A stretch of 9,617 bases of DNA from a virus. Taxonomy: Duplodnaviria; Heunggongvirae; Uroviricota; Caudoviricetes. Shown piece by piece: positions 1 through 9,617 of the stretch. Within the stretch, counting starts at the first letter, position 1. Each line of letters begins with the position of its first letter. The notes under the pieces are model-generated. The model was not told where the DNA came from and searched no databases. It was given only the letters and a program-made list of their open reading frames with translations. The DNA is taken from positions 1 to 9,617 of the IMG/VR virus record IMGVR_UViG_2531839668_000010. One strand, written 5' to 3'. The position numbers and the translations under genes were made by a program.

Positions 1-219
1 TTACATCCACATAATTTGCTGCCCTGACGGCAACGGGTGCGGCCTTACGGCGTGGACTTCTCCCGGCTTCACGATGTATCGCTGTACCGACTCATAAGTG
101 ATGAACGTGGCGCTGCAATTCACGTTCTGACACTGGTGATAACGCTCTTTTGTCGTGTCAGTGATATAGCGACTTGTACGCGCATGTGCGGCATGCTGGC
201 ATAAAGGACAATGAAACAT
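1..219 (-). CDS. ogr: Ogr, zinc-finger late-gene transcriptional activator (P2 Ogr/Delta family), 72 aa
   Basis: Minus-strand ORF ending in TAA at 3..1. Translation from the ATG at 219..217 reads MFHCPLCQHAAHARTSRYITDTTKERYHQCQNVNCSATF...QQIMWM, which matches P2 Ogr as I recall it, including the CxxC-x22-CxxxxC zinc-binding cysteines. The ORF-track start at 294 is a TTG extension that runs through the predicted promoter, so I do not use it. A GGAAGAGG Shine-Dalgarno-like motif lies about 8 nt upstream of the ATG at 219. Confidence 0.9.
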   Translation of the reverse strand: MFHCPLCQHAAHARTSRYITDTTKERYHQCQNVNCSATFITYESVQRYIVKPGEVHAVRPHPLPSGQQIMWM

Positions 220-253
220 CGCGAGCACCTCTTCCGGTTTTGTTGATGGTGCC

Positions 254-282
254 ATTTTAGTTAATTTATCCTTATAAAACAA
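254..282 (-). promoter_or_regulatory. Putative sigma70 promoter for ogr (-35 TTGTTT, 17-bp spacer, -10 TAAAAT)
   Basis: Read on the minus strand: TTGTTT at 282..277, a 17-nt spacer, and TAAAAT at 259..254, about 35 nt upstream of the ogr ATG. This is a motif match only; ogr is known to have its own promoter in P2. Confidence 0.4.
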
Positions 283-300
283 ACAGATAAACAATAGACA

Positions 301-1464
301 TCACTCATCACCTTCTGTTTCGTACTCCACATCAGAAAGCCTGACCTCAAGCTCTAAGGACGTCGTGAAGCCGCTATTATTCAGAAAATGTGTCACCTTA
401 GTGATTGTCCAGTCCTGCTCGTCTATGACGCGCTTAAAGCCTGACACTTTAACCGGTGTTTCCGTGTAAATATCTGCCCGACCGGTAGCCAGGCTGATGG
501 AGAACTCCGCAACGCCCCGTTGCAGTTTATCCCACTTCGCCTGAGCGGCGCGCATGGCCTGCGCTTTCGTGGCATATACCGTGGTCAGGGCAAAAACGTT
601 GTCAGCCTCACCGGCCATGTATTCACCTTCACGCGCTTCCGGTACTTTAGGCGCTTTCTTCTGCCTGACCGGTTTCGCTTTCGGGTGCTCCAGTGCGCGC
701 AGGTGTTTCTCTTTCTTTTTGCGTTTCAGTTTTACCTTCTGCTTTTGAGGCTTCGGGTCTTTGGTGTGTAACCACTTTGCCGTTACGCCGGTGTAGGCTC
801 CACGGTCAGCAATCGCAAAATGATGGCGGTCGCCGTCGCTGCGGGTTATGGTGACCTGCGGGATTTTTTTACCGCTGGACGTCACCCCCTGCCCCGCTTT
901 GAGAAACAACAGTTTTCCCATTTTTACCGACACCTCACCGCCGTTGCGTTCAGCAAGGCGGGTCAGGAATTTTGCATCAGACTCCTGCGACTGGTCGATG
1001 TGCGGGATTTTAATTCCGGCCAGTGACGGAGCGACACTGGCTTCCAGCCTGTTACGGGAGGCTATCGCCTCAACAATCGCACCGAGCGTGGTGTCATGCC
1101 AGGAGCCTTCACGGCGGGAATTGAGCGTCCCGCGAAAATCTGCACTCCGGGCGCGGATGGTGACCACATCCGGAGCGCCCCGGTGTTCAACCTCATCAAC
1201 GGTAAATGTCCCTTTGCATACCAGGGCAAAACCTTTCCAGCCGATATAAACCGTCAGGACAGCGCCACGAACCGGCAGCCCGACCTGCCCGTCGGCATCG
1301 TTCAGTTCAATATCAAGCTGGTCAGCCTCAAAGCCCCGGTTATCCGTCAGGGTCATACTCATCAGACGGTCGCTGATATTGCCGGTAATATCCCTGCTGT
1401 CGAGCATCAGCATGTAATCCGGCGTCAGCGTACTGCCTGCATCAAATGTCAGCGCATCCAGCAT
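301..1464 (-). CDS. D: Phage tail protein D (P2 gpD, late control gene D family), 387 aa
   Basis: Full-length minus-strand ORF with ATG at 1464..1462 and stop at 303..301. Length and sequence (MLDALTFDAGSTLTPDYMLMLDSRDITGNISDRL...) match P2 gpD as I recall it. Its start overlaps the U stop (TAATG), indicating translational coupling, and it lies upstream of ogr as in P2. Confidence 0.9.
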   Translation of the reverse strand: MLDALTFDAGSTLTPDYMLMLDSRDITGNISDRLMSMTLTDNRGFEADQLDIELNDADGQVGLPVRGAVLTVYIGWKGFALVCKGTFTVDEVEHRGAPDVVTIRARSADFRGTLNSRREGSWHDTTLGAIVEAIASRNRLEASVAPSLAGIKIPHIDQSQESDAKFLTRLAERNGGEVSVKMGKLLFLKAGQGVTSSGKKIPQVTITRSDGDRHHFAIADRGAYTGVTAKWLHTKDPKPQKQKVKLKRKKKEKHLRALEHPKAKPVRQKKAPKVPEAREGEYMAGEADNVFALTTVYATKAQAMRAAQAKWDKLQRGVAEFSISLATGRADIYTETPVKVSGFKRVIDEQDWTITKVTHFLNNSGFTTSLELEVRLSDVEYETEGDE

Positions 1465-1943
1465 TATCCCGCCCCCGTCATACCCGTGAATTTAGTCGCC
1501 AGACTGCCAGCCTTACCGATGAGCGATTCCGCCTGTTTACCGATATCGCCATAAAGCGCGGCCAGTGATTCATCAACGCGGGTGAGTGACAGCGTAAAAT
1601 CAATTTTCCGGGGTGTGCCGTCTGCAAAGAAAATACTCCCTGTTTCACTCACCTTGCTGATGACATACATGCCGTAAATCATGCCCGTGCCATCCAGCAA
1701 CGGCCACGCCCGGCCTTCCTCTGCCATCAGTCTGAGCGTGGTCATCGTCAGCTTTCCGCCGGTCAGTTCAGGATAAAGCACACCGGCAAGCGTGATGTTT
1801 TCCTCACCCGCACCGAGAAACTGAAAGGCATCCCGTTTGCCGATACGGGAATTTGACGGCCAGCGATAATCTGATTCACGCTGCATGGTCTGGTGTGGCA
1901 GCGTCTGGCGCATAAAAACAAACATACCTAACGCGAGCATCAT
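1464..1943 (-). CDS. U: Phage tail protein U (P2 gpU), 159 aa
   Basis: Minus-strand ORF with ATG at 1943..1941 and TAA at 1466..1464 overlapping the D start. The length of 159 aa and the U-D-ogr synteny match P2. Confidence 0.85.
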   Translation of the reverse strand: MMLALGMFVFMRQTLPHQTMQRESDYRWPSNSRIGKRDAFQFLGAGEENITLAGVLYPELTGGKLTMTTLRLMAEEGRAWPLLDGTGMIYGMYVISKVSETGSIFFADGTPRKIDFTLSLTRVDESLAALYGDIGKQAESLIGKAGSLATKFTGMTGAG

Positions 1944-1944
1944 T

Positions 1945-2232
1945 TTTCGTTACACGCCGGAAATGAAAACCGCAATGGTGCTCAAGGCAAAAGACGTCAT
2001 CCGCCGTGGCTGTCTGGAATATGACGTCAGCGCCACCGACATCACCAGCTCGTTTATGGCTATCCGCAAGACCATGACCAGCAGCGGACGCAGCGCCACT
2101 TATGAGGCCAGCCGCAGCGAGGAAGCCAGCCACGCCGACCTCGCCTGGGCGACCATGCATGCCCTGTTAAATGAGCCACTCACCGCCGGTATCAGCACCC
2201 CGCTGACATCCACCATTCTGGAGTTTTACTGA
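1945..2232 (+). pseudogene. P: C-terminal remnant (~95 codons) of the terminase large/ATPase subunit gene P (P2 gpP), 5'-truncated
   Basis: A plus-strand frame is open from 1870 to TGA at 2230..2232, and that stop overlaps the Q start codon (TGATG), the coupled P-Q arrangement expected in P2. The sequence ...RSEEASHADLAWATMHALLNEPL resembles the C-terminal nuclease-domain end of large terminases. The frame cannot extend upstream of 1870 and the U start lies at 1943, so at most ~95 codons of P remain (P2 gpP is roughly 590 aa). The assignment rests on synteny and motif resemblance, not on an alignment. Confidence 0.5.
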
Positions 2233-3266
2233 TGAGCAAGAAAAAAGGGAAAACACCGCAGCCAGCGGTGAAAACAATGACCGCCAGCGCCCCGAAAATG
2301 GAGGCATTCACCTTTGGTGAGCCGGTGCCGGTACTCGACCGCCGTGACATTCTGGATTACGTCGAGTGCATCAGTAACGGCAGATGGTATGAGCCACCGG
2401 TCAGCTTTACCGGTCTGGCAAAAAGCCTGCGTGCTGCCGTGCATCACAGCTCACCGATTTACGTCAAACGCAATATTCTGGCCTCGACATTTCTCCCGCA
2501 CCCGTGGCTTTCCCAGCAGGATTTCAGCCGCTTTGTGCTGGATTTTCTGGTGTTCGGTAATGCGTTTCTGGAAAAGCGTTACAGCACCACCGGTAAGGTC
2601 ATCAGACTGGAAACCTCACCGGCAAAATATACCCGCCGTGGCGTGGAGGAGGATGTTTACTGGTGGGTGCCGTCCTTCAACGAGCCGACAGCTTTCACGC
2701 CCGGCTCCGTGTTTCACCTGCTGGAGCCGGATATTAATCAGGAGCTGTACGGCCTGCCGGAATATCTCAGCGCCCTTAATTCTGCCTGGCTGAATGAATC
2801 AGCCACACTGTTCCGCCGCAAGTATTACGAAAACGGCGCTCATGCCGGATACATCATGTACGTCACTGATGCCGTGCAGGATCGCAACGATATCGAAATG
2901 CTCCGCGAAAACATGGTGAAGTCGAAAGGCCGCAACAACTTTAAAAATCTGTTCCTCTATGCCCCACATGGGAAAGCCGACGGCATTAAAATTATCCCGC
3001 TCAGTGAGGTCGCAACGAAGGACGATTTTTTTAATATCAAAAAAGCCAGCGCCGCTGACCTGCTGGACGCGCACCGCATCCCCTTTCAGTTGATGGGAGG
3101 CAAGCCGGAGAACGTCGGGTCGCTGGGTGATATTGAGAAAGTGGCAAAGGTCTTTGTCCGCAATGAGCTTATCCCGTTACAGGACAGGATTCGGGAAATA
3201 AACGGCTGGCTCGGTCAGGAGGTCATCCGCTTTAAAAACTACTCACTGGACACTGACAACGACTGA
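2232..3266 (+). CDS. Q: Portal (capsid portal) protein, P2 gpQ, 344 aa
   Basis: Complete plus-strand ORF with ATG at 2232 and a GGAG motif 9 nt upstream. The sequence (MSKKKGKTPQPAVKTMTASAPKMEAFTFGEPVPVLDRRDILDYVECISNGRWYEPP...) and length match P2 gpQ as I recall it. It lies next to cos and is oriented away from it, as in P2. Confidence 0.9.
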   Translation: MSKKKGKTPQPAVKTMTASAPKMEAFTFGEPVPVLDRRDILDYVECISNGRWYEPPVSFTGLAKSLRAAVHHSSPIYVKRNILASTFLPHPWLSQQDFSRFVLDFLVFGNAFLEKRYSTTGKVIRLETSPAKYTRRGVEEDVYWWVPSFNEPTAFTPGSVFHLLEPDINQELYGLPEYLSALNSAWLNESATLFRRKYYENGAHAGYIMYVTDAVQDRNDIEMLRENMVKSKGRNNFKNLFLYAPHGKADGIKIIPLSEVATKDDFFNIKKASAADLLDAHRIPFQLMGGKPENVGSLGDIEKVAKVFVRNELIPLQDRIREINGWLGQEVIRFKNYSLDTDND

Positions 3267-3270
3267 ACAT

Positions 3271-3293
3271 CGCCGCCTGCGGGCGGCTTTTTT
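3271..3293 (+). terminator. Rho-independent terminator downstream of Q
   Basis: GC-rich hairpin GCCGCC-TGCG-GGCGGC (3272-3287) followed directly by a T6 run (3288-3293), 5 nt after the Q stop codon. Confidence 0.65.
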
Positions 3294-3435
3294 ACAACCC
3301 GCCATCACGCCCTCACACGCTCACCACCGCACAAAACAGCCCGCAGACACACCAACGCCCCGGCTAACAATCTAAACGCCATCACGACGCGCTCAGACGC
3401 TGAAAAAATAAAATCAGCACCACCGCCAGCGCGCA

Positions 3436-3454
3436 GTGCTTTCCCCGCCTCGCC
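3436..3454. other. P2-type cos site (19-nt cohesive-end sequence, joined form)
   Basis: The plus strand reads GTGCTTTCCCCGCCTCGCC, the reverse complement of the P2 19-nt cohesive end GGCGAGGCGGGGAAAGCAC as I recall it. It lies about 170 nt beyond the Q stop, the same relative position as at the P2 left end. Confidence 0.75.
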
Positions 3455-3541
3455 CGCCCGCTTCATGGGGCAGTTTGAATGCAGTTGAATCACTATCTTT
3501 AACCCGCACCAACACTACCTGAAGCTCATCAAAAAGATATT

Positions 3542-3580
3542 TTGAAACAAATGCATTATCATGCAACGTAACCATACAAT
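3542..3580 (+). promoter_or_regulatory. Candidate promoter region for the cargo ORF (TTGAAA -35-like at 3542-3547; TACAAT -10-like at 3575-3580)
   Basis: AT-rich region upstream of the cargo ATG at 3620 with individually good hexamers, but their spacing is not canonical. A strong AGGA ribosome-binding site lies at 3611-3614. Confidence 0.25.
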
Positions 3581-3619
3581 ATTGAGAATTGTGTTCTAGA
3601 AAAATCCAGAAGGAAAAAC

Positions 3620-4414
3620 ATGCAGATCAAAAAAGGAACAGTCTGGCATACTTACACAACCCAGTCACCAACATATGACAATGCGGAGGAAACTGCATCG
3701 CAATTAATCAAAACAGGTATGTTTTTGGCGATTTTAACCCCTGATAACACTTTTAAGTGTCTTTCAGGCTGTAATGTGTTATCAACAAAGTTATCAATGA
3801 AATACGAGAATAATGGAGTTAGCGTCAATTTGGGTGATGCTAATTTTTTAAACTCTCCCGGCTTATGCGATTTAACAATCCATTCATTCTACAATTGTAT
3901 CAACTTGAGACTATCAGAAAACAAACTATTCCATATCACAGAGCAATCATATTACAACAACATTATTTGTTGTCAAAAACCCATTTTATTTGGTTGCGGA
4001 GAAAATGAGTTTTTCTTAATTCCAATAATACGCCTATATCGAAATGGCATATCCCATATAACTTTCATCGACGAAGAACGTTATGATAATGAATTAAATT
4101 ATTTCATTGACACAAAAATAAATCTCCCTTTTAATGCCAGCAGTTCAATCATTGCCAGCACGGAGTATACAAACAGAGTCATTGAGCTTGACTTATCACC
4201 AATGAATTTGGTCCAGCGAGTTATAGCCAAGAGATTATTGTCAACACAAATCAAACAGGTGGAAGTAAAATCAAGAGATATATCTTGCGACAACTTAACA
4301 ATCAATGGAAAATATATTAACTACGCAAAAGAATTTGAACTACAAAATAGCTTAAGCGATATCGCTCGCACCACAATAGCAATAATTCACAACACATTAA
4401 GAAAAAAACACTAA
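3620..4414 (+). CDS. Hypothetical protein, 264 codons: N-terminal segment of a frameshift-split low-GC cargo ORF of unknown function
   Basis: ATG at 3620 preceded by AGGA with a 5-nt spacer. GC is about 30-40%, against about 55% in the flanking phage genes. I find no Walker A, HUH, reverse-transcriptase or other motif I recognise. The frame ends at TAA 4412-4414, just after an A7 run (4402-4408). Confidence 0.7.
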   Translation: MQIKKGTVWHTYTTQSPTYDNAEETASQLIKTGMFLAILTPDNTFKCLSGCNVLSTKLSMKYENNGVSVNLGDANFLNSPGLCDLTIHSFYNCINLRLSENKLFHITEQSYYNNIICCQKPILFGCGENEFFLIPIIRLYRNGISHITFIDEERYDNELNYFIDTKINLPFNASSSIIASTEYTNRVIELDLSPMNLVQRVIAKRLLSTQIKQVEVKSRDISCDNLTINGKYINYAKEFELQNSLSDIARTTIAIIHNTLRKKH

Positions 4415-5232
4415 AAGATATTTTATTTGGCAGAAAAACAACAGACTTCTATCATGGATGGCAAGGGAAACCTAATATTTATATTTTTAGCCATGACAAC
4501 CAAAAAAGCAACGCCAATAAAAATAGCAAATACAACAAACAATTAATATCTTCACTATTAAGCAAGAGCACTTTTTTTAATGATGAAAAAGACAAGCAAA
4601 ATCACATCGACCTCAGAGTATTTAATGACTTTAATTATTATTCAGAGCAAGGAGCAACCCTCACACTATGTTCAAAAAAAGTAGAATTTAAAAACATCAC
4701 AGATTCGTATTCCGAATCAAATATCATATGGGACAACCAAGTAAAAAGTGACCTGAGAGATTTTATATCTTTTTTTTACGAATCCAAAATAGAACAAGTC
4801 AAGAATGAGAACAACCATATTGGCCTAGCCACAACCCAAGAGGAAATCATTCAATTTGAGGAATGGTTAAGAGTCTTTTCAAAAAAATATGGAGAAATAC
4901 AAAACATTATATCCAACAACGTCCAGTCAAATGATTTAGAACTGGCTCGAAAGAACCTTGCCAAAATGTTAAAATCAAGAATGCAAGTTATAAAACTAAA
5001 AGATGCAAGCAAAAACGAAATAAGCAACAGGAATATTACTATAACGTTTGGCTTAGTTGCCTCAACATCTCTCTCACCTGTGATAACGAAACCACTCTTT
5101 GAAAACTCAGGTATTACCAAGATAATAAAACATCTTAATCTAGGTGGCTATACAGAAACCATTTATTATATTTTTTCCGCTATTTTTGTATCAGTAGTAT
5201 TATTGTTCATCAATAAACTCAACAGAAAATAA
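4408..5232 (+). CDS. Continuation of the cargo ORF in the -1 frame (~274 codons, no start codon of its own before 4966); predicted C-terminal transmembrane helix
   Basis: My manual translation shows this frame free of stop codons from 4351 to TAA at 5230-5232 (293 codons), in sequence where stops should be frequent. It contains no ATG, GTG or TTG until 4966, so the 88-aa ORF in the track (4966..5232) is only the tail of a longer coding frame. It overlaps the end of the upstream frame across 4351-4414. The C-terminus ...TIYYIFSAIFVSVVLLFINKL is a hydrophobic stretch of helix length. Confidence 0.6.
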   Translation, partial: TLKDILFGRKTTDFYHGWQGKPNIYIFSHDNQKSNANKNSKYNKQLISSLLSKSTFFNDEKDKQNHIDLRVFNDFNYYSEQGATLTLCSKKVEFKNITDSYSESNIIWDNQVKSDLRDFISFFYESKIEQVKNENNHIGLATTQEEIIQFEEWLRVFSKKYGEIQNIISNNVQSNDLELARKNLAKMLKSRMQVIKLKDASKNEISNRNITITFGLVASTSLSPVITKPLFENSGITKIIKHLNLGGYTETIYYIFSAIFVSVVLLFINKLNRK

Positions 5233-5764
5233 TCTCCTACCCCTGCGTTTATAAGTGGGGGTATAAATTACAAAATAGAACCTACATACCCATAACAAAA
5301 TAAATGATTTTTCATCAGAGGGCTTACACTCTCTTTGCACGCCAGTCACAACATCTTACTCTATTTCAAGGAACTATCTTCTTTACTGATGATTTTGTTT
5401 TCTTATACCATGCATTAACCCCCCAGGATTTTCCCGAAACCTCATAGCCATATTAGTGAATAACACCGCCATCAGACAAAATAAGCATCTATGACACATG
5501 AGAATTAATCCGCTTGACACAAGAAGCACCCACCCTGTGATTTTTGAAACATTAACTGATTATTTTTATTACTTGGCTCACGATGAGTTATACTTCGACA
5601 GAAGGTCACTCACAATGATTTTCTTAGCCAAATTAGATGCTCTTTTATATTTGAGTTAAATTACATGCTAACGATTCAATATAATTTAGTCTTCTATTTC
5701 AGTATACTATTGACCTTCTTCTGCCTTAGAGTCGCTCTGCATACCAAATTAGTTGTGTTTTTAC

Positions 5765-8041
5765 TCAAATGGATAACGAGAATCCCGGCCACTCATCAGC
5801 GACCGGATACGTGAATTTTTTCCCGTCGTAATTTACGGTTGCCCCACGCGCCAGCGCCTCAAGCTCCCATCGCTGAGGCCTGATACCATTCTGAACAAGG
5901 TCAACGCGGATACGGGTGATTTGCATTCGTTCCGACCGGGTCAGTCTGGCCGACGGTGCAATTTCATGTGTTTTTAACGGACTTCCGTTTCTTTGCTGAC
6001 GATTTGGTGTTTTCAGACCGTGTTTTAATGCTCCCCTGAGCGCCCTCACGACCTCCGGGTCATTCCATTCGATAACACCGTCATCAACCAGATTTAGCAC
6101 TGCTGCAGCGTGCTCAGAAGGTGTGGGAGCCGGTAACGAAGCATCACTACCGGTGAGCTTTCCACAGTTATTGACAGGACTCCGAGGCGCGGCGATGCCG
6201 CTTTTTAAAGTCAAAGGCTCAACGACCGGAACTTTCGGCACAATGCGCCAGTCCGTCGTTCTGGTGATATGAATATGACGCGCGCCGAGATGCGGCGCGT
6301 AAATGCCGACCACTCTCTCGACTTCTTCCTCGTACTCGTTAACGTCATCCGACAGACTACGGGCGACCCTGACAGTCTGACAATCGCGCGGGACATTTGC
6401 CCCGCCCTGCGCGCTGATATACAGCGCAAAATCACCACTGTCTGCGGCGGCGCGTGCAGCCTCGACGCGCTCGTCAAACTCATCAGCAATGCTGACGCCG
6501 CGAGGCAATTTGCGTAGTTCACGGTAAGCCCCCATTGTCGGCAGGCCAACCGTTTTAAATTGCGGAATGCGCCACGTTGACGCCCATGCGGTAACAGCCG
6601 CTGCAGTGTCTTTCAGCGGCCTGCCGGTGTCGTTATCGAGCTGACCATCCAGTGCATAGCCGTCGATGTTTTTTGAAATGTATTTCGCGATATATCCCGC
6701 AGCACCGCCCCGGTTAAGGTGTTTTGCCTGAAAACGGTTTCGCGCGGCTCCTCTTTCGTCGCCATCCTCTTTGAGCGCATAGCGACGCATGATTTCGATA
6801 ATCTGGTTACGCTGGCGTGGATGACAAAAAAGCATCATATGCCAGTGCGGCGTTCCGTCGTGGTGTGGCTCGACGACTCGCAAACCGTAGACCTGTAAAT
6901 CATTATCCTTGAATGCCGTGCGCATCAGGCTCCAGATACGGCAGAGATAACGCTGCGCATCCTTTGGATTAAATGCCTCATCGTTCCAGCCGTGATTAAG
7001 CTGAACGGTTTTACTTTCGCCTTTTCCGACCTGACGTGTCGGGTGATACTTTGACGGCGCGGTCAGCGTGATAAACATCCCCACATCACCCTCTGCGGCG
7101 GCGTAACGCTCAATACCGGCAATGGTGTTCATCAGCTCCATCCGGCGAATTTCAGGATTAGAAATACTGCCCATCACCTTACTGATAAGGTCGATGCGCT
7201 CGCCGGTTTCCCTGTTTTCAAGGTCACACGATTTAAGAAATTCCAGATTTGCCTGGCGGCGCGCACGCACATCACGAATGGCGTGTTTACTGGCATAAGG
7301 AGAACGGTCTTTATTGACCTCCCCGACAGCTATCAGTAACGCCTCATGCCAGCGCATACGCTGGCCTTTAAGCTGATGAGTCCACCACTCATCGTTAAAC
7401 AGGCGGGCAATGGCAGAATATGCCTGCCTCGTGGTCATCTGTCCTTTACGGTATTTTTTCCAGTAGAGCGGGGAAATATTGAAAGCACGTGCAGCGCCAG
7501 CAACATGACCATACAGGTGAGCCTGCGCCTCATCCGTAAACAGCGATTCTTTTTCACCATGCGCATCAACCCATGCATCGCAGAGTTCCTCATACATCAT
7601 GAAAAGCTGCGATGAGATACGGGCGGCAAACTTTTTCAGCTCCTTGTCATTCATTCCCGGCAGGCGCGCATAGTGGTCACGCTCTGCCAGAAACAGCAAC
7701 GACGCGTCGGTGTTCATTTCATGGCGCTGATTCACACGCTCAATGCGCGGCCATAAACGACACTGAAAAGTAGATGTGAGGAAATAAAACCCGTGCACCG
7801 GGCTTTTATTGCGCCGGATGTAGTCATAGCGTGAAGTAAACAGCGAGCGCAAAAAGTAAGGCAGGCGGTTAATCGTGGATAAAACACCTTGCACCTGACG
7901 CATCTCGTCACGTGTAAGAGGTCTTTCGCGCCCGACAGCCTCGCGTGGCGCGTTCCATGCATAAGCACCGGTAAACGCCTTACCGGTGCCTGCGGTAAAT
8001 GCTGACGGAGGGACAAAACGCCCGGAGACTTTAACGGCCAT
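5765..8041 (-). CDS. A: Replication initiation protein A (P2 gpA, HUH rolling-circle endonuclease), ~758 aa from the ATG at 8041
   Basis: Long minus-strand ORF ending in TAA at 5767..5765. It carries an HUH motif (PHWHMML, about nt 6830-6850) and paired tyrosines (GYIAKYIS, about nt 6680-6694), as expected for P2 gpA. The ORF track starts at a TTG at 8083 (772 aa); I prefer the in-frame ATG at 8041, which gives a length close to P2 gpA and a short overlap with the upstream ORF stop. Confidence 0.9.
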   Translation of the reverse strand: MAVKVSGRFVPPSAFTAGTGKAFTGAYAWNAPREAVGRERPLTRDEMRQVQGVLSTINRLPYFLRSLFTSRYDYIRRNKSPVHGFYFLTSTFQCRLWPRIERVNQRHEMNTDASLLFLAERDHYARLPGMNDKELKKFAARISSQLFMMYEELCDAWVDAHGEKESLFTDEAQAHLYGHVAGAARAFNISPLYWKKYRKGQMTTRQAYSAIARLFNDEWWTHQLKGQRMRWHEALLIAVGEVNKDRSPYASKHAIRDVRARRQANLEFLKSCDLENRETGERIDLISKVMGSISNPEIRRMELMNTIAGIERYAAAEGDVGMFITLTAPSKYHPTRQVGKGESKTVQLNHGWNDEAFNPKDAQRYLCRIWSLMRTAFKDNDLQVYGLRVVEPHHDGTPHWHMMLFCHPRQRNQIIEIMRRYALKEDGDERGAARNRFQAKHLNRGGAAGYIAKYISKNIDGYALDGQLDNDTGRPLKDTAAAVTAWASTWRIPQFKTVGLPTMGAYRELRKLPRGVSIADEFDERVEAARAAADSGDFALYISAQGGANVPRDCQTVRVARSLSDDVNEYEEEVERVVGIYAPHLGARHIHITRTTDWRIVPKVPVVEPLTLKSGIAAPRSPVNNCGKLTGSDASLPAPTPSEHAAAVLNLVDDGVIEWNDPEVVRALRGALKHGLKTPNRQQRNGSPLKTHEIAPSARLTRSERMQITRIRVDLVQNGIRPQRWELEALARGATVNYDGKKFTYPVADEWPGFSLSI

Positions 8042-8306
8042 ATGAGCCAAAAGCCTCTGAACAACGCTTGCTGAGTTGCTCAACCTGCGCGTTTAAATCA
8101 GCAAAAGATTTTGCGCTTCCGGTCAGAATATCGTGATGCATCAGGCCGGAAACGAGCTGGCCTAATTTCGGGTAATAACCAACCACCGCCAGCCATTCCT
8201 GACCGGCGTTTTTACCGCTTTCCGCTCTCTTTTTCTCGTGGAGAATAAACTGAAAGCTGTCACTGGTAACGACATAACGTTCGCCAATTTCAATACGAAT
8301 ACTCAT
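8031..8306 (-). CDS. Small early-operon protein of unknown function (P2 orf83-like position), 91 aa
   Basis: ATG at 8306..8304 overlaps the upstream gene's stop (ATGA). It sits immediately upstream of A in a tightly coupled operon, in the position of the small ORFs between B and A in P2. The specific orf number is not verified. Confidence 0.7.
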   Translation of the reverse strand: MSIRIEIGERYVVTSDSFQFILHEKKRAESGKNAGQEWLAVVGYYPKLGQLVSGLMHHDILTGSAKSFADLNAQVEQLSKRCSEAFGSYGR

Positions 8307-8527
8307 GCCGTTCTCCGGTAATGTTTGTTTTTTGCTTCAAAGACTGACTGACAGGAAACACAACGCGTGGCTGACGGATAAGCCGCACGACGGGCAGCAG
8401 GTATTGGCGCGTCACACTCTTCGCAAACCAGCGCAGAAACACCGCAATGTTTTACCCTTGCCGCGTTAATCTGGCGCTCCAGTAATTCAGCCTGTTGTTC
8501 CTGAATAAAATCTACGTTGTCCGGCAT
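8303..8527 (-). CDS. TraR/DksA-family C4 zinc-finger protein (P2 orf82-like), 74 aa
   Basis: Carries a CEEC-x17-CVSC four-cysteine motif typical of TraR/DksA C4 zinc fingers. Its start overlaps the upstream stop (TAATG). P2 has a TraR-like ORF at this position. Confidence 0.8.
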   Translation of the reverse strand: MPDNVDFIQEQQAELLERQINAARVKHCGVSALVCEECDAPIPAARRAAYPSATRCVSCQSVFEAKNKHYRRTA

Positions 8528-8829
8528 TACCAGCTCCTTTTGTCGTTCAGCTTCTTAAATTCATCAGCGCAATAACTGGCGAGTTCTGTCGTTAATTTTG
8601 TCAGTTCATCCACTGAGGAAATTTGCTTGTGGAATACAGCGCGTTTAACAAGTAAATTGACCACATCAGACAGGAGGTTTAATTCACTCTGATAAATCGC
8701 GATAACAGATTCAGTTATTTCGCGCTTCTCTTTATCAATACCAAGTTGAATAAGAGACAAATCACCATTTTTCATAACGGCGATTTTTAAGGCGTTATTC
8801 AGTAATACAACCGAACGAGAACAGGACAT
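8527..8829 (-). CDS. Small early-operon protein of unknown function (P2 orf81-like position), ~100 aa
   Basis: The ORF-track start at 8832 is a TTG. The ATG at 8829..8827 overlaps the upstream stop TGA (8831..8829) and is the likelier start. Confidence 0.65.
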   Translation of the reverse strand: MSCSRSVVLLNNALKIAVMKNGDLSLIQLGIDKEKREITESVIAIYQSELNLLSDVVNLLVKRAVFHKQISSVDELTKLTTELASYCADEFKKLNDKRSW

Positions 8830-9053
8830 CAAAGCACCTCCCCGCGAGACAATCCGATATTGTGAAATTTTTCCGACTCCTGACTGAGCAGCTCAACTAT
8901 CTCCACGCGGGATAACTCCGCCTTTGTGATGTGGCGAATCATGGCGTCAAGATGAGAAGAAAAGCGCGTCGCAGCGTCGGCCTGTGCTTCGGTTCTGGCC
9001 TGTTGCAGCAGTAATGCGTATTTACCGCACTGATTTTCAGAAACTGTATGCAT
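8829..9053 (-). CDS. Small early-operon protein of unknown function (P2 orf80-like position), 74 aa
   Basis: ATG at 9053..9051 with a GGAG motif about 9 nt upstream. It is the first gene after B in the operon. Confidence 0.65.
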
Positions 9054-9116
9054 GACTTTCTCCAGGCAAAAAGAAGCCCCGCACGATTAAGTGCGTTAAA
9101 AACTCTGGTTAATTAT

Positions 9117-9617
9117 TTAATGCAGATATTGCTCTGGTTTTACCGACGTCAGAATTGTCGGTGCATACTCAAACAGACTGAATAATTCACGTAATGCACG
9201 GAATAAAGCATCACGCCAGTAACATGATTCTTCATTAATTCGCCAGTACGGCTGATTGAATTCTTTTTCTGTCAATCCCGCATGCATAAATAAAGTACGA
9301 CGCTGACTGACTGTTAAAAAACTAATATATGCATACTCACTTGCGCCGACCTGACGGCGTTTTGAGAATGCGCCACGCAATTCATCAATTGCACAAACCA
9401 GTCGTTCACGTTCGACGTCGTTCATTTCTTCAAAACGCATCGTTGCGTGACGCTGTTTTAACTGCGCATGAAAGCAAACCGTTAGCCGTTCGCGCTCCAT
9501 CATGTGATTATAATAATCACATGTATCCTGCCAGCGAGGAACGGCAAGATGCTTACCAATTATCCGTCGCATAGCTGCTGGCTGTTTTTCAACGAGATTG
9601 AGCGTCATCACTGTCAT
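9117..9617 (-). CDS. B: Replication protein B (P2 gpB, helicase-loader-like), 166 aa
   Basis: Complete 166-aa minus-strand ORF whose ATG is the last three bases of the window. Length and sequence (MTVMTLNLVEKQPAAMRRIIGKHLAVPRWQDTC...) match P2 gpB as I recall it. It lies upstream of the small ORFs and A, as in the P2 early operon. Confidence 0.85.
   Translation of the reverse strand: MTVMTLNLVEKQPAAMRRIIGKHLAVPRWQDTCDYYNHMMERERLTVCFHAQLKQRHATMRFEEMNDVERERLVCAIDELRGAFSKRRQVGASEYAYISFLTVSQRRTLFMHAGLTEKEFNQPYWRINEESCYWRDALFRALRELFSLFEYAPTILTSVKPEQYLH

What the first reader, a model, noticed from the sequence alone, without database searches (positions are those of the whole stretch)
5158..5220. 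Predicted C-terminal transmembrane anchor on the cargo protein
Seen in sequence: the last ~25 residues (GYTETIYYIFSAIFVSVVLLFINKLNRK) include an 18-20 residue hydrophobic stretch followed by basic residues, consistent with a single C-terminal membrane helix (tail-anchor topology). Established knowledge: many single-gene abortive-infection and defence effectors pair a cytoplasmic sensing domain with a membrane-disrupting or membrane-anchored C-terminus. Inference: the protein may act at the inner membrane, which fits an exclusion or abortive-infection role, but this is compositional prediction only.
Basis: partly seen in the sequence, partly recalled or inferred. Interest (0 to 1): 0.5.

Follow-up and report, generated by a model that had tools for sequence, protein, structure and literature searches.

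The report
Membrane hairpin on orphan prophage cargo protein
The hydrophobic tail is real and conserved, but it is the second of two membrane helices at the end of an uncharacterised 537-residue protein that sits alone in a known anti-phage hotspot of a P2-like prophage, and in this copy the gene is broken by a one-base deletion.

Summary
Window 5158-5220 encodes TIYYIFSAIFVSVVLLFINKL, as reported. On this one sequence the hydrophobicity is only weakly above chance: 157 of 2000 shuffles reach it. Across the family it is decisive. In 67 of 68 homologues, down to about 15% identity, the most hydrophobic 19-residue window is this C-terminal one, always followed by a basic tail. A second hydrophobic helix (5032-5088, NITITFGLVASTSLSPVIT) lies about 20 residues upstream. 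It is the most conserved segment of the protein. An N-in/C-in two-helix hairpin therefore fits better than a single tail anchor.

The protein equals WP_001165947.1. It has no Pfam, NCBIfam or PADLOC match and no convincing structural relative. It is the only gene between portal gpQ and replication gpA, the P2 hotspot that carries old/tin. Relatives occupy the same slot in diverse P2-like prophages and once the P4 hotspot. Distant relatives lie near DUF4238, type IIG restriction-modification and toxin-antitoxin genes.

In this window an A8 run is A7 (4402-4408), which separates the N-terminal 264 residues from the membrane part.

Best reading: an untested single-gene membrane-acting phage-defence candidate. 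Mechanism is inferred, not shown.

The parts
3620..4414 (+). N-terminal ORF fragment of the cargo gene (264 codons plus a premature stop). It corresponds to residues 1-263 of the intact 537-residue protein, the predicted cytoplasmic alpha/beta region.
   Evidence: ORF list; three-frame translation; the intact homologue WP_001165947.1 is annotated in L001 at 9321-10934; the AF2 model has pLDDT mostly 85-94 over residues 1-260.
4402..4408 (+). A7 homopolymer, the frameshift site. All nine related E. coli loci examined have A8 here. In the 0 frame it reads AGA AAA AAA CAC, that is A_AAA_AAA. A -1 slip would give LRKKTLKD, the wild-type sequence.
   Evidence: A-run 7 in the window, 8 in L001, L002 and L007-L011; the window equals NZ_CP051001.1 with 0 mismatches and 1 gap over 9617 bases.
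4405..5232 (+). C-terminal continuation of the cargo gene in the -1 frame (residues 263-537 plus stop). There is no ATG, GTG or TTG before 4966.
4930..5031 (+). Residues 438-471, the cytoplasmic part of a long predicted helix (438-482) that runs straight into the first hydrophobic helix.
   Evidence: AF2 secondary structure; translation.
5032..5088 (+). First hydrophobic helix (TMa), NITITFGLVASTSLSPVIT, residues 472-490. It carries the family signature F477, G478 and, just after it, P492.
   Evidence: Translation. KD19 is 1.23 here, the family mean is 1.80, and 55 of 68 members reach 1.6. It has the lowest entropy of any segment, 2.09 bits against 2.78 overall; F477 is kept in 88%, G478 in 96% and P492 in 99% of members.
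5089..5157 (+). Connecting loop of about 20 residues (KPLFENSGITKIIKHLNLGGYTE), predicted periplasmic. It holds the invariant Pro492 and an aromatic residue at 494.
   Evidence: family loop mean length 20, 2.0 K/R against 2.0 D/E.
5158..5214 (+). Second hydrophobic helix (TMb), TIYYIFSAIFVSVVLLFIN, residues 514-532. This is the stretch the finding reports.
   Evidence: AF2 helix 509-535.
5215..5232 (+). Basic C-terminal tail KLNRK plus the stop codon.
   Evidence: the family tail averages 3.4 K/R against 0.35 D/E.
2232..3266 (+). P2-type portal gene gpQ, the left border of the hotspot.
5765..8083 (-). P2-type replication endonuclease gpA, the right border of the hotspot.

Best explanation
The reported stretch is a true membrane-spanning helix. 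It is the second helix of a C-terminal two-helix membrane hairpin, with N-terminus and C-terminus both cytoplasmic and a loop of about 20 residues outside. The protein is 537 residues long and belongs to an orphan family (WP_001165947.1, PHROG 24946). The first helix is sequence-conserved (F-G ... P ... P-x-aromatic) and continues a long cytoplasmic helix. The second helix is variable but uniformly hydrophobic, so probably lipid-facing, and ends in a basic tail. The gene is the sole cargo of the P2 gpQ-gpA hotspot. It most likely acts as a single-gene anti-phage system. In this model the large cytoplasmic part senses infection and the hairpin, probably after oligomerisation, compromises the inner membrane (abortive infection, holin-like or channel-like). 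Shown: the sequence features, their conservation, the location and the lack of known homologues. Inferred: topology, defence function and membrane damage. In this window a 1-nt deletion in an A8 run disconnects the hairpin from the sensor part. This copy is therefore inactive or a sequencing artefact, apart from rare slippage.
For: The hydrophobic helix sits at the stated coordinates. It is conserved in 68 of 68 homologues and is the global hydrophobicity maximum in 67 of 68. A second hydrophobic segment lies 20-60 residues upstream in 59 of 68, and it is the most conserved part of the protein. The tail is strongly basic and the loop is neutral. AF2 (pLDDT 79, pTM 0.77) predicts helices 438-482 and 509-535. 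Pfam, NCBIfam and PADLOC give nothing for the query or for 68 relatives. There is no PDB relative by sequence or by fold. The gene lies between gpQ and gpA in the window and in 15 of 16 IMG/VR loci, whose portals are 67-99% identical. That locus is the published P2 defence hotspot carrying old/tin (PMC9122126). WP_001165947 is listed there 7 times as the lone 'hypothetical' occupant. A 33%-identical homologue sits in the P4-satellite hotspot between int and psu/delta. Most randomly chosen unknown genes from the P4 hotspot proved defensive, 6 of 8 (PMC13586616). Distant relatives adjoin DUF4238, PIN, toxin-antitoxin, AAA_15/DUF3696, type IIG restriction-modification and PD-T4-6 genes, and no partner gene is conserved.
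Against: There is no experiment of any kind. On the single sequence the hydrophobicity is not significant (157 of 2000 shuffles). The first helix is only marginally hydrophobic in this protein (KD 1.23, Hessa sum +5.9). In the wider family it contains prolines and often a charged residue, so it may be re-entrant rather than spanning. In this particular protein the loop carries three Lys, so the positive-inside argument rests on the family rather than on this sequence. I could not see model coordinates or PAE, so burial of the helices was not examined. Many neighbours of distant homologues are housekeeping genes. No deposited phage genome carries a homologue. The gene is frameshifted here and, at another A-run, in two cattle strains.
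Confidence: 0.5

Rival explanations
1. Single-span tail anchor. Only residues 514-532 cross the membrane (N-in, C-out). The upstream conserved hydrophobic segment is an interfacial, re-entrant or protein-protein contact helix. The C-terminus merely tethers a cytoplasmic effector or sensor to the inner membrane.
For: The last helix is by far the more hydrophobic (KD 2.11 against 1.23 here; family 2.53 against 1.80). The first segment has Pro, Ser and Thr and, in many relatives, an acidic residue. Only 55 of 68 members reach 1.6. Bacterial tail-anchored proteins exist (my own knowledge).
Against: The C-tail averages +3 net charge in 9 residues in every clade, which by the positive-inside rule favours a cytoplasmic C-terminus. 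The upstream segment is hydrophobic in all members, lies at a fixed distance and is the best-conserved segment. Its Wimley-White octanol sum is favourable in 67 of 68 members.
Confidence: 0.2
2. Membrane-located but non-lethal exclusion. The protein blocks entry or an early membrane step of a superinfecting phage (Sie-like, as in P22 SieA, T4 Imm or HK97 gp15) rather than killing the cell.
For: It is prophage-encoded, located in the inner membrane and sits in a hotspot that holds exclusion genes.
Against: Only about 20 residues are predicted outside the cytoplasm, whereas about 470 residues are cytoplasmic. Known Sie proteins are small, on my own knowledge. The family is also common in non-phage contexts across many phyla.
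Confidence: 0.12
3. Not a defence gene. It is a moron or mobile-element cargo with some other membrane function, for example a lysogenic-conversion factor, a regulator tethered to the membrane, or an addiction or lysis-related module.
For: There is no homology to any known defence protein. Several distant homologues have housekeeping or polysaccharide neighbours. One of 68 relatives weakly matches a two-TM holin family (PF07332, E 1.4e-4).
Against: It consistently occupies the P2 and P4 defence hotspots as a lone gene. Defence neighbours occur in unrelated phyla. Unknown genes from these hotspots have a high hit rate when tested (PMC13586616).
Confidence: 0.15
4. The hydrophobic helices are not in a membrane. 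They form the buried core of a soluble oligomer or pack against the globular domain. The apparent TM signal is partly a by-product of AT-rich codon usage.
For: The single-sequence shuffle test is weak. The C-terminal half modelled alone folds poorly (pLDDT 61.5, pTM 0.36), so the helices may depend on other contacts.
Against: GC-rich homologues from Acidobacteria, Cyanobacteria and Deltaproteobacteria keep the same two hydrophobic helices and the basic tail. The second helix is free to vary as long as it stays apolar (entropy 2.82 bits), which is typical of lipid-facing rather than core positions. It has 19-20 consecutive apolar residues flanked by aromatic and basic residues.
Confidence: 0.05

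Closest known systems
Occupants of the P2 gpQ-gpA (cos-proximal) hotspot: old/tin of P2, Rst_DUF4238, Rst_3HP and the 2TM+1TM+TIR system of phage AC1 (Rousset et al. 2022, PMC9122126)
   Same: Same genomic slot, AT-rich cargo, own transcription unit opposite to gpA. The AC1 system also uses transmembrane proteins as presumed effectors.
   Different: No sequence similarity to any of them (PADLOC and Pfam negative). It is a single polypeptide rather than TIR plus separate TM proteins, and its activity has not been tested.
Defence effectors with transmembrane helices (CBASS Cap14/Cap15, Pycsar PycTM, the retron-Ec48 2TM effector, lambda RexB, SLATT-domain proteins)
   Same: A cytoplasmic sensing or signal-receiving part is coupled to one to four membrane helices thought to depolarise the cell.
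   Different: These are mostly small effector proteins activated by a separate sensor or nucleotide signal. Here a novel-fold region of about 470 residues is fused to the hairpin. No SLATT or other Pfam TM-effector domain is detected in 68 members.
CorA/ZntB-type channels (including CorA effectors of type III CRISPR systems)
Class II holins and pinholins (two TM helices, N-in/C-in, charged basic C-tail)
   Same: The last 70 residues or so have the same layout. One relative weakly hits Phage_holin_3_6.
   Different: Holins are stand-alone proteins of 70-150 residues in lysis cassettes. This hairpin is fused to a large domain and lies outside the lysis module.

Membership tests
   Residues 514-532 of 537, KD19 2.11; conserved in 68 of 68 relatives.
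   A second conserved hydrophobic helix lies at 472-490 in all members. Family mean KD is 1.80, and 55 of 68 reach 1.6. Whether it fully spans the membrane is unresolved.
   The basic tail (3.4 K/R against 0.35 D/E) argues against it by the positive-inside rule. Reporter fusions are needed.
Cargo of the P2 gpQ-gpA defence hotspot (Rousset 2022) | Located between replication gene gpA and portal gene gpQ, next to cos, in a P2-like element | tested here: met
   Window: Q 2232-3266, gene 3620-5232, A 5765-8083. The arrangement is the same in 15 of 16 IMG/VR loci. The accession is listed in Table S5A.
Cargo of the P2 gpQ-gpA defence hotspot (Rousset 2022) | Demonstrated anti-phage activity | not testable with these tools
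   It is not among the tested systems in PMC9122126 or PMC13586616 as far as the held text shows. It is absent from the DefensePredictor supplements held.
Any known or candidate defence family in PADLOC-DB v2.0.0 | A significant profile match | tested here: not met
   There are 0 hits for the query. Among 68 relatives only one marginal hit appears (PDC-M18B, E 0.006).
CorA/ZntB metal-ion channel superfamily | A GMN (or related) motif at the end of TM1, and a Pfam CorA profile match | tested here: not met
   The alignment shows F-G-L ... P ... P-x-W/F and no GMN. There is no CorA hit in Pfam for 68 members.
CorA/ZntB metal-ion channel superfamily | Fold similarity of the cytoplasmic domain plus a stalk helix continuous with TM1 | tested here: inconclusive
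SLATT, holin and other Pfam transmembrane effector domains | A Pfam profile match | tested here: not met
   No SLATT match. One of 68 members matches Phage_holin_3_6 at E 1.4e-4.

The most novel reading that the evidence does not exclude
A widespread protein family with no Pfam, NCBIfam or PADLOC model is a new single-gene anti-phage system. The family has 239 clusters at 50% identity, spread from Enterobacterales prophages to Acidobacteria, Cyanobacteria and Deltaproteobacteria. In this reading a cytoplasmic sensor of a fold without solved relatives directly gates its own conserved two-helix pore-forming hairpin, a 'sensor-tethered holin or channel'. P2-like phages and P4 satellites carry it in their defence hotspots.
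Probability: 0.3. Interest if true: 0.6.

Novelty: new member of a known kind. Interest (0 to 1): 0.4.

Why it matters
If the intact gene protects against phages, it would add a compact one-protein system to the defence repertoire. It has an unrecognised fold and a built-in membrane effector. It would also supply a family signature (W-x-G-[KR]-P, D-x-R-x-F-D-D, F-G ... P ... P-x-W plus a second TM helix and a basic tail) for annotating about 240 sequence clusters that current tools miss. It would illustrate that 'hypothetical' lone genes in the P2 hotspot are worth testing. For this particular window the practical point is smaller. The gene is interrupted by a homopolymer indel, so an automatic annotation would split it and lose the link between the cytoplasmic part and the membrane part.

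Tried and rejected
- Pfam, NCBIfam and PADLOC scans of the frame-corrected protein gave only noise (Deltameth_res, SerK_C, below cut-off). Pfam and PADLOC scans of 68 relatives also gave only noise.
- A profile search of PDB sequences gave nothing below E 0.04.
- Foldseek found nothing at E <= 0.001 against either the PDB or BFVD: the best matches were E 0.16 (PDB) and E 2.1e-3 (BFVD, TM-score about 0.1). Scattered TBP-like, Med18/20 and PYP hits at probability below 0.4 are a lead at most. The afdb50 library was unavailable.
- Modelling the C-terminal half alone, to search its fold separately, gave a poor model (pLDDT 61.5, pTM 0.36), so I did not search with it.
A clade-III sub-alignment worked.
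- A second homologous-protein run with the 68-sequence profile returned only the close family again.
- There was no hit in 50,697 deposited phage genomes. Rfam found nothing in the window. Promoter and terminator scans around the gene were not above the shuffle expectation.
- I tested whether the gene is unusually rich in A-runs, which would suggest phase variation. It has 3 runs of at least 7 A against 1.5 expected, P 0.19, so it is not.
- I looked for a conserved partner gene. There is none: no Pfam family recurs in more than 2 of 13 clade-III neighbourhoods.

Full report
**Setting**

The window is a defective P2-like prophage.
- ogr, D and U lie at 1-1943 on the minus strand.
- U abuts a C-terminal remnant of the terminase gene P (1948-2232), followed by portal gene Q (2232-3266).
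- The cos-proximal spacer comes next, then an AT-rich island (GC 0.30-0.37 against 0.50-0.59 in the flanks).
- Replication gene A (5765-8083, minus strand) and the early genes follow.

The window is identical to E. coli O157:H16 str. 98-3133 (NZ_CP051001.1) over all 9617 bases except for one gap. In that genome the element sits between pflB and pflA.

**The gene**

The only long reading frame in the AT-rich island is split.
- ORF 3620-4414 encodes 264 residues.
- The -1 frame then stays open, without any ATG, GTG or TTG until 4966, down to a stop at 5230-5232.
- The break is an A7 run at 4402-4408.
- Adding one A gives a 537-residue protein that is identical to WP_001165947.1, annotated 'hypothetical protein'.

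All nine related E. coli loci I fetched have A8 at this run. Two cattle isolates (C3, C7) are instead frameshifted at another run, A7 to A8 at the position equal to window 4881-4887, which truncates the protein at residue 438.

Whether the window's A7 is a sequencing error or a recent mutation cannot be decided from the sequence. The complete absence of other differences from NZ_CP051001.1 fits either explanation.

The site reads A_AAA_AAA in the zero frame, and a -1 slip would regenerate exactly the wild-type peptide LRKKTLKD. This follows from the sequence. Any actual slippage is speculation.

A-runs are not enriched beyond what the composition predicts.

**The observation**

- The 19-residue window 514-532 has a mean Kyte-Doolittle value of 2.11.
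- Its Hessa-scale sum is +0.33 kcal/mol.
- Its Wimley-White octanol sum is -12.4 kcal/mol.

The protein is rich in I, L, F and V, so 157 of 2000 shuffles reach the same maximum. On its own the stretch is therefore suggestive but not significant.

**Family evidence**

- A word-indexed search found 26 clusters, 33-100% identical, all 534-540 residues and all from Enterobacterales.
- An exhaustive profile search found 239 representatives at E <= 1e-3, mostly 530-570 residues.
- These fall into three clades: the enterobacterial one, a small second clade, and a large one from Acidobacteria, Cyanobacteria, Deltaproteobacteria, Chloroflexi, Armatimonadota and Betaproteobacteria.
- In an alignment of 68 diverse members (14-50% identical to the query), the C-terminal window reaches the 1.6 threshold in 68 of 68, with a mean of 2.53.
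- It is the most hydrophobic window of the whole protein in 67 of 68.
- It is followed by a tail with 3.4 K/R against 0.35 D/E on average.

GC-rich relatives keep the feature, so AT-biased codon usage does not explain it.

**A second helix**

Every member also has a hydrophobic segment 20-60 residues upstream. Here it is residues 472-490, NITITFGLVASTSLSPVIT, window 5032-5088.
- It is weaker in this protein (KD 1.23), with a family mean of 1.80 and 55 of 68 members at or above 1.6.
- It is nevertheless the best-conserved segment of the protein: entropy 2.09 bits against 2.78 overall, with F477 in 88%, G478 in 96% and P492 in 99% of members.
- The last helix, by contrast, is variable (2.82 bits) but always apolar.

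AlphaFold2 with the 25-sequence alignment gave a usable model (pLDDT 79.3, pTM 0.77). In it a 45-residue helix (438-482) runs into the first hydrophobic segment, two short helices follow, and a 27-residue helix (509-535) ends the chain.

The connecting loop is about 20 residues and electrically neutral in the family. The N-terminal region of about 470 residues has no signal peptide-like segment, and the C-tail is strongly basic. The most economical topology is therefore N-in, two crossings, C-in.

That is an inference from the positive-inside rule. In this particular protein the loop has three lysines, and the first helix could be re-entrant.

A conserved inner helix paired with a variable outer helix is the pattern seen in oligomeric channels, where the first helix lines the pore. 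This comparison rests on my own knowledge and is an analogy only.

**What the protein is not**

- There is no Pfam, NCBIfam or PADLOC match for the query.
- There is none for 68 relatives, apart from one holin_3_6 hit at 1.4e-4 and one marginal PDC-M18B hit.
- PHROG 24946, of unknown function, covers the protein end to end.
- There is no PDB relative by profile.
- Foldseek against the PDB and BFVD finds nothing at E <= 0.001.
- The C-terminal half modelled alone is poor. The half starting near W281 therefore probably needs the N-terminal part. I did not pursue the short 'C-half only' database entries, many of which start mid-sequence and look like split or truncated genes.

**Context**

- In the window and in 15 of 16 IMG/VR loci the gene lies between gpQ and gpA of P2-like elements. 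Their portals range from 67 to 99% identity and their gpA from 35 to 99%.
- This is the cos-proximal hotspot of P2-like phages that holds old/tin and many validated defence systems (PMC9122126).
- WP_001165947 is listed seven times in that paper's Table S5A as a lone 'hypothetical' occupant. It was not among the systems tested.
- A 33%-identical homologue in Citrobacter koseri lies between int and the psu/delta genes of a P4-like satellite, the P4 hotspot.
- A 2026 study found that 6 of 8 randomly chosen unknown loci from the P4 hotspot protect against phages (PMC13586616).

Distant relatives have no conserved neighbour. In 13 clade-III neighbourhoods no Pfam family recurs more than twice. Several of these sit beside defence or mobile-element genes:
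- type IIG restriction-modification/DrmMI-like and PD-T4-6 genes;
- PIN, DUF4238 and toxin-antitoxin genes in Cyanobium;
- AAA_15/DUF3696, an RNA ligase and HicA;
- integrative-element genes in Cellvibrio.

Others sit among housekeeping genes. No deposited phage genome has a homologue.

**Interpretation**

What is shown:
- a conserved pair of C-terminal hydrophobic helices with a basic tail;
- on an orphan-family protein;
- as the single cargo of a defence hotspot;
- disrupted in this copy.

What is inferred, in decreasing confidence:
- the last helix spans the inner membrane (about 0.85);
- the two helices form an N-in/C-in hairpin (about 0.6);
- the gene is an anti-phage determinant (about 0.55-0.6);
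- it works by infection-triggered membrane permeabilisation through oligomerisation of the hairpin, which would be holin-like or CorA-like in layout only (about 0.35).

The rivals are a true single-span tail anchor, a non-lethal exclusion function, a non-defence cargo function, and non-membrane burial of the helices.

**Novelty**

The family has been catalogued (PHROG, RefSeq, Table S5A) but is uncharacterised. A membrane-anchored candidate defence gene in the P2 hotspot is a further example of a known kind, not a new principle. The lack of any detectable relative for the cytoplasmic region of about 470 residues is the more interesting aspect.

Noticed in passing
window 1943-1948: The prophage is a deletion remnant. 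The start of tail gene U (1464-1943, minus strand) abuts a C-terminal fragment of terminase gene P (1948-2232, plus strand). All head, lysis, baseplate, fibre and sheath genes between P and U are therefore missing. RefSeq annotates the same junction in NZ_CP051001.1.
   Followed up: partly
window 1-9617 vs L001 5702-15319: The window matches E. coli O157:H16 98-3133 with 0 mismatches and a single 1-base gap, the A-run at 4402-4408. The window ends about 40 bases before an IS30 transposase gene in that genome. This looks like a contig break at a repeat.
   Followed up: partly
window 4881-4887 (L002 and L009 equivalents): A second, independent homopolymer frameshift allele of the same gene (A7 to A8) occurs in cattle strains C3 and C7. 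It truncates the protein at residue 438, so it also removes the membrane hairpin. It may be real inactivation or a long-read homopolymer error.
   Followed up: partly
window 5233-5764: A 532-bp AT-rich stretch lies between the cargo stop codon and the end of gpA. It has no convincing ORF and no Rfam hit. It is over 99% conserved in all copies of this cassette and absent from the other cassettes fetched here; a 72%-identical homologue (L018) has only about 50 bp at this position. Its function is unknown.
   Followed up: partly
L021-L025 (e.g. L022 1971-3587 and 4444-4513): In the 34%-identity subgroup, the conserved cos-region segment (equal to window ~3421-3490) lies downstream of the gene. 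There the gene sits between Q and cos rather than between cos and A.
   Followed up: no
L003 8001-11413: In the Citrobacter koseri P4-like satellite the homologue overlaps the integrase stop codon. Two further unannotated genes (319 and 242 residues, opposite strand) follow it before delta/psu. They may be another unknown hotspot system.
   Followed up: no
H7 / L010 (NZ_CP134387.1, plasmid pMTY11352_3) and H11: Strain TUM11352 carries the cassette twice, once on the chromosome and once on an 88-kb plasmid, each flanked by portal and gpA genes.
   Followed up: no
P0085, P0107, P0028 (database proteins): Several entries of about 267 residues start with Met at the same point, just before the W-x-G-[KR]-P motif (residue ~270), and contain only the C-terminal half with both hydrophobic helices. 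They may be real short forms or recurrent split genes.
   Followed up: partly
model mebc626882b77, residues ~1-260: Foldseek's weak top hits for the N-terminal region repeatedly involve curved-sheet folds: TATA-box-binding-protein-like viral proteins, Mediator Med18/20, PYP/PAS and dCACHE. All are at low probability and are only a lead for the sensor domain.
   Followed up: no
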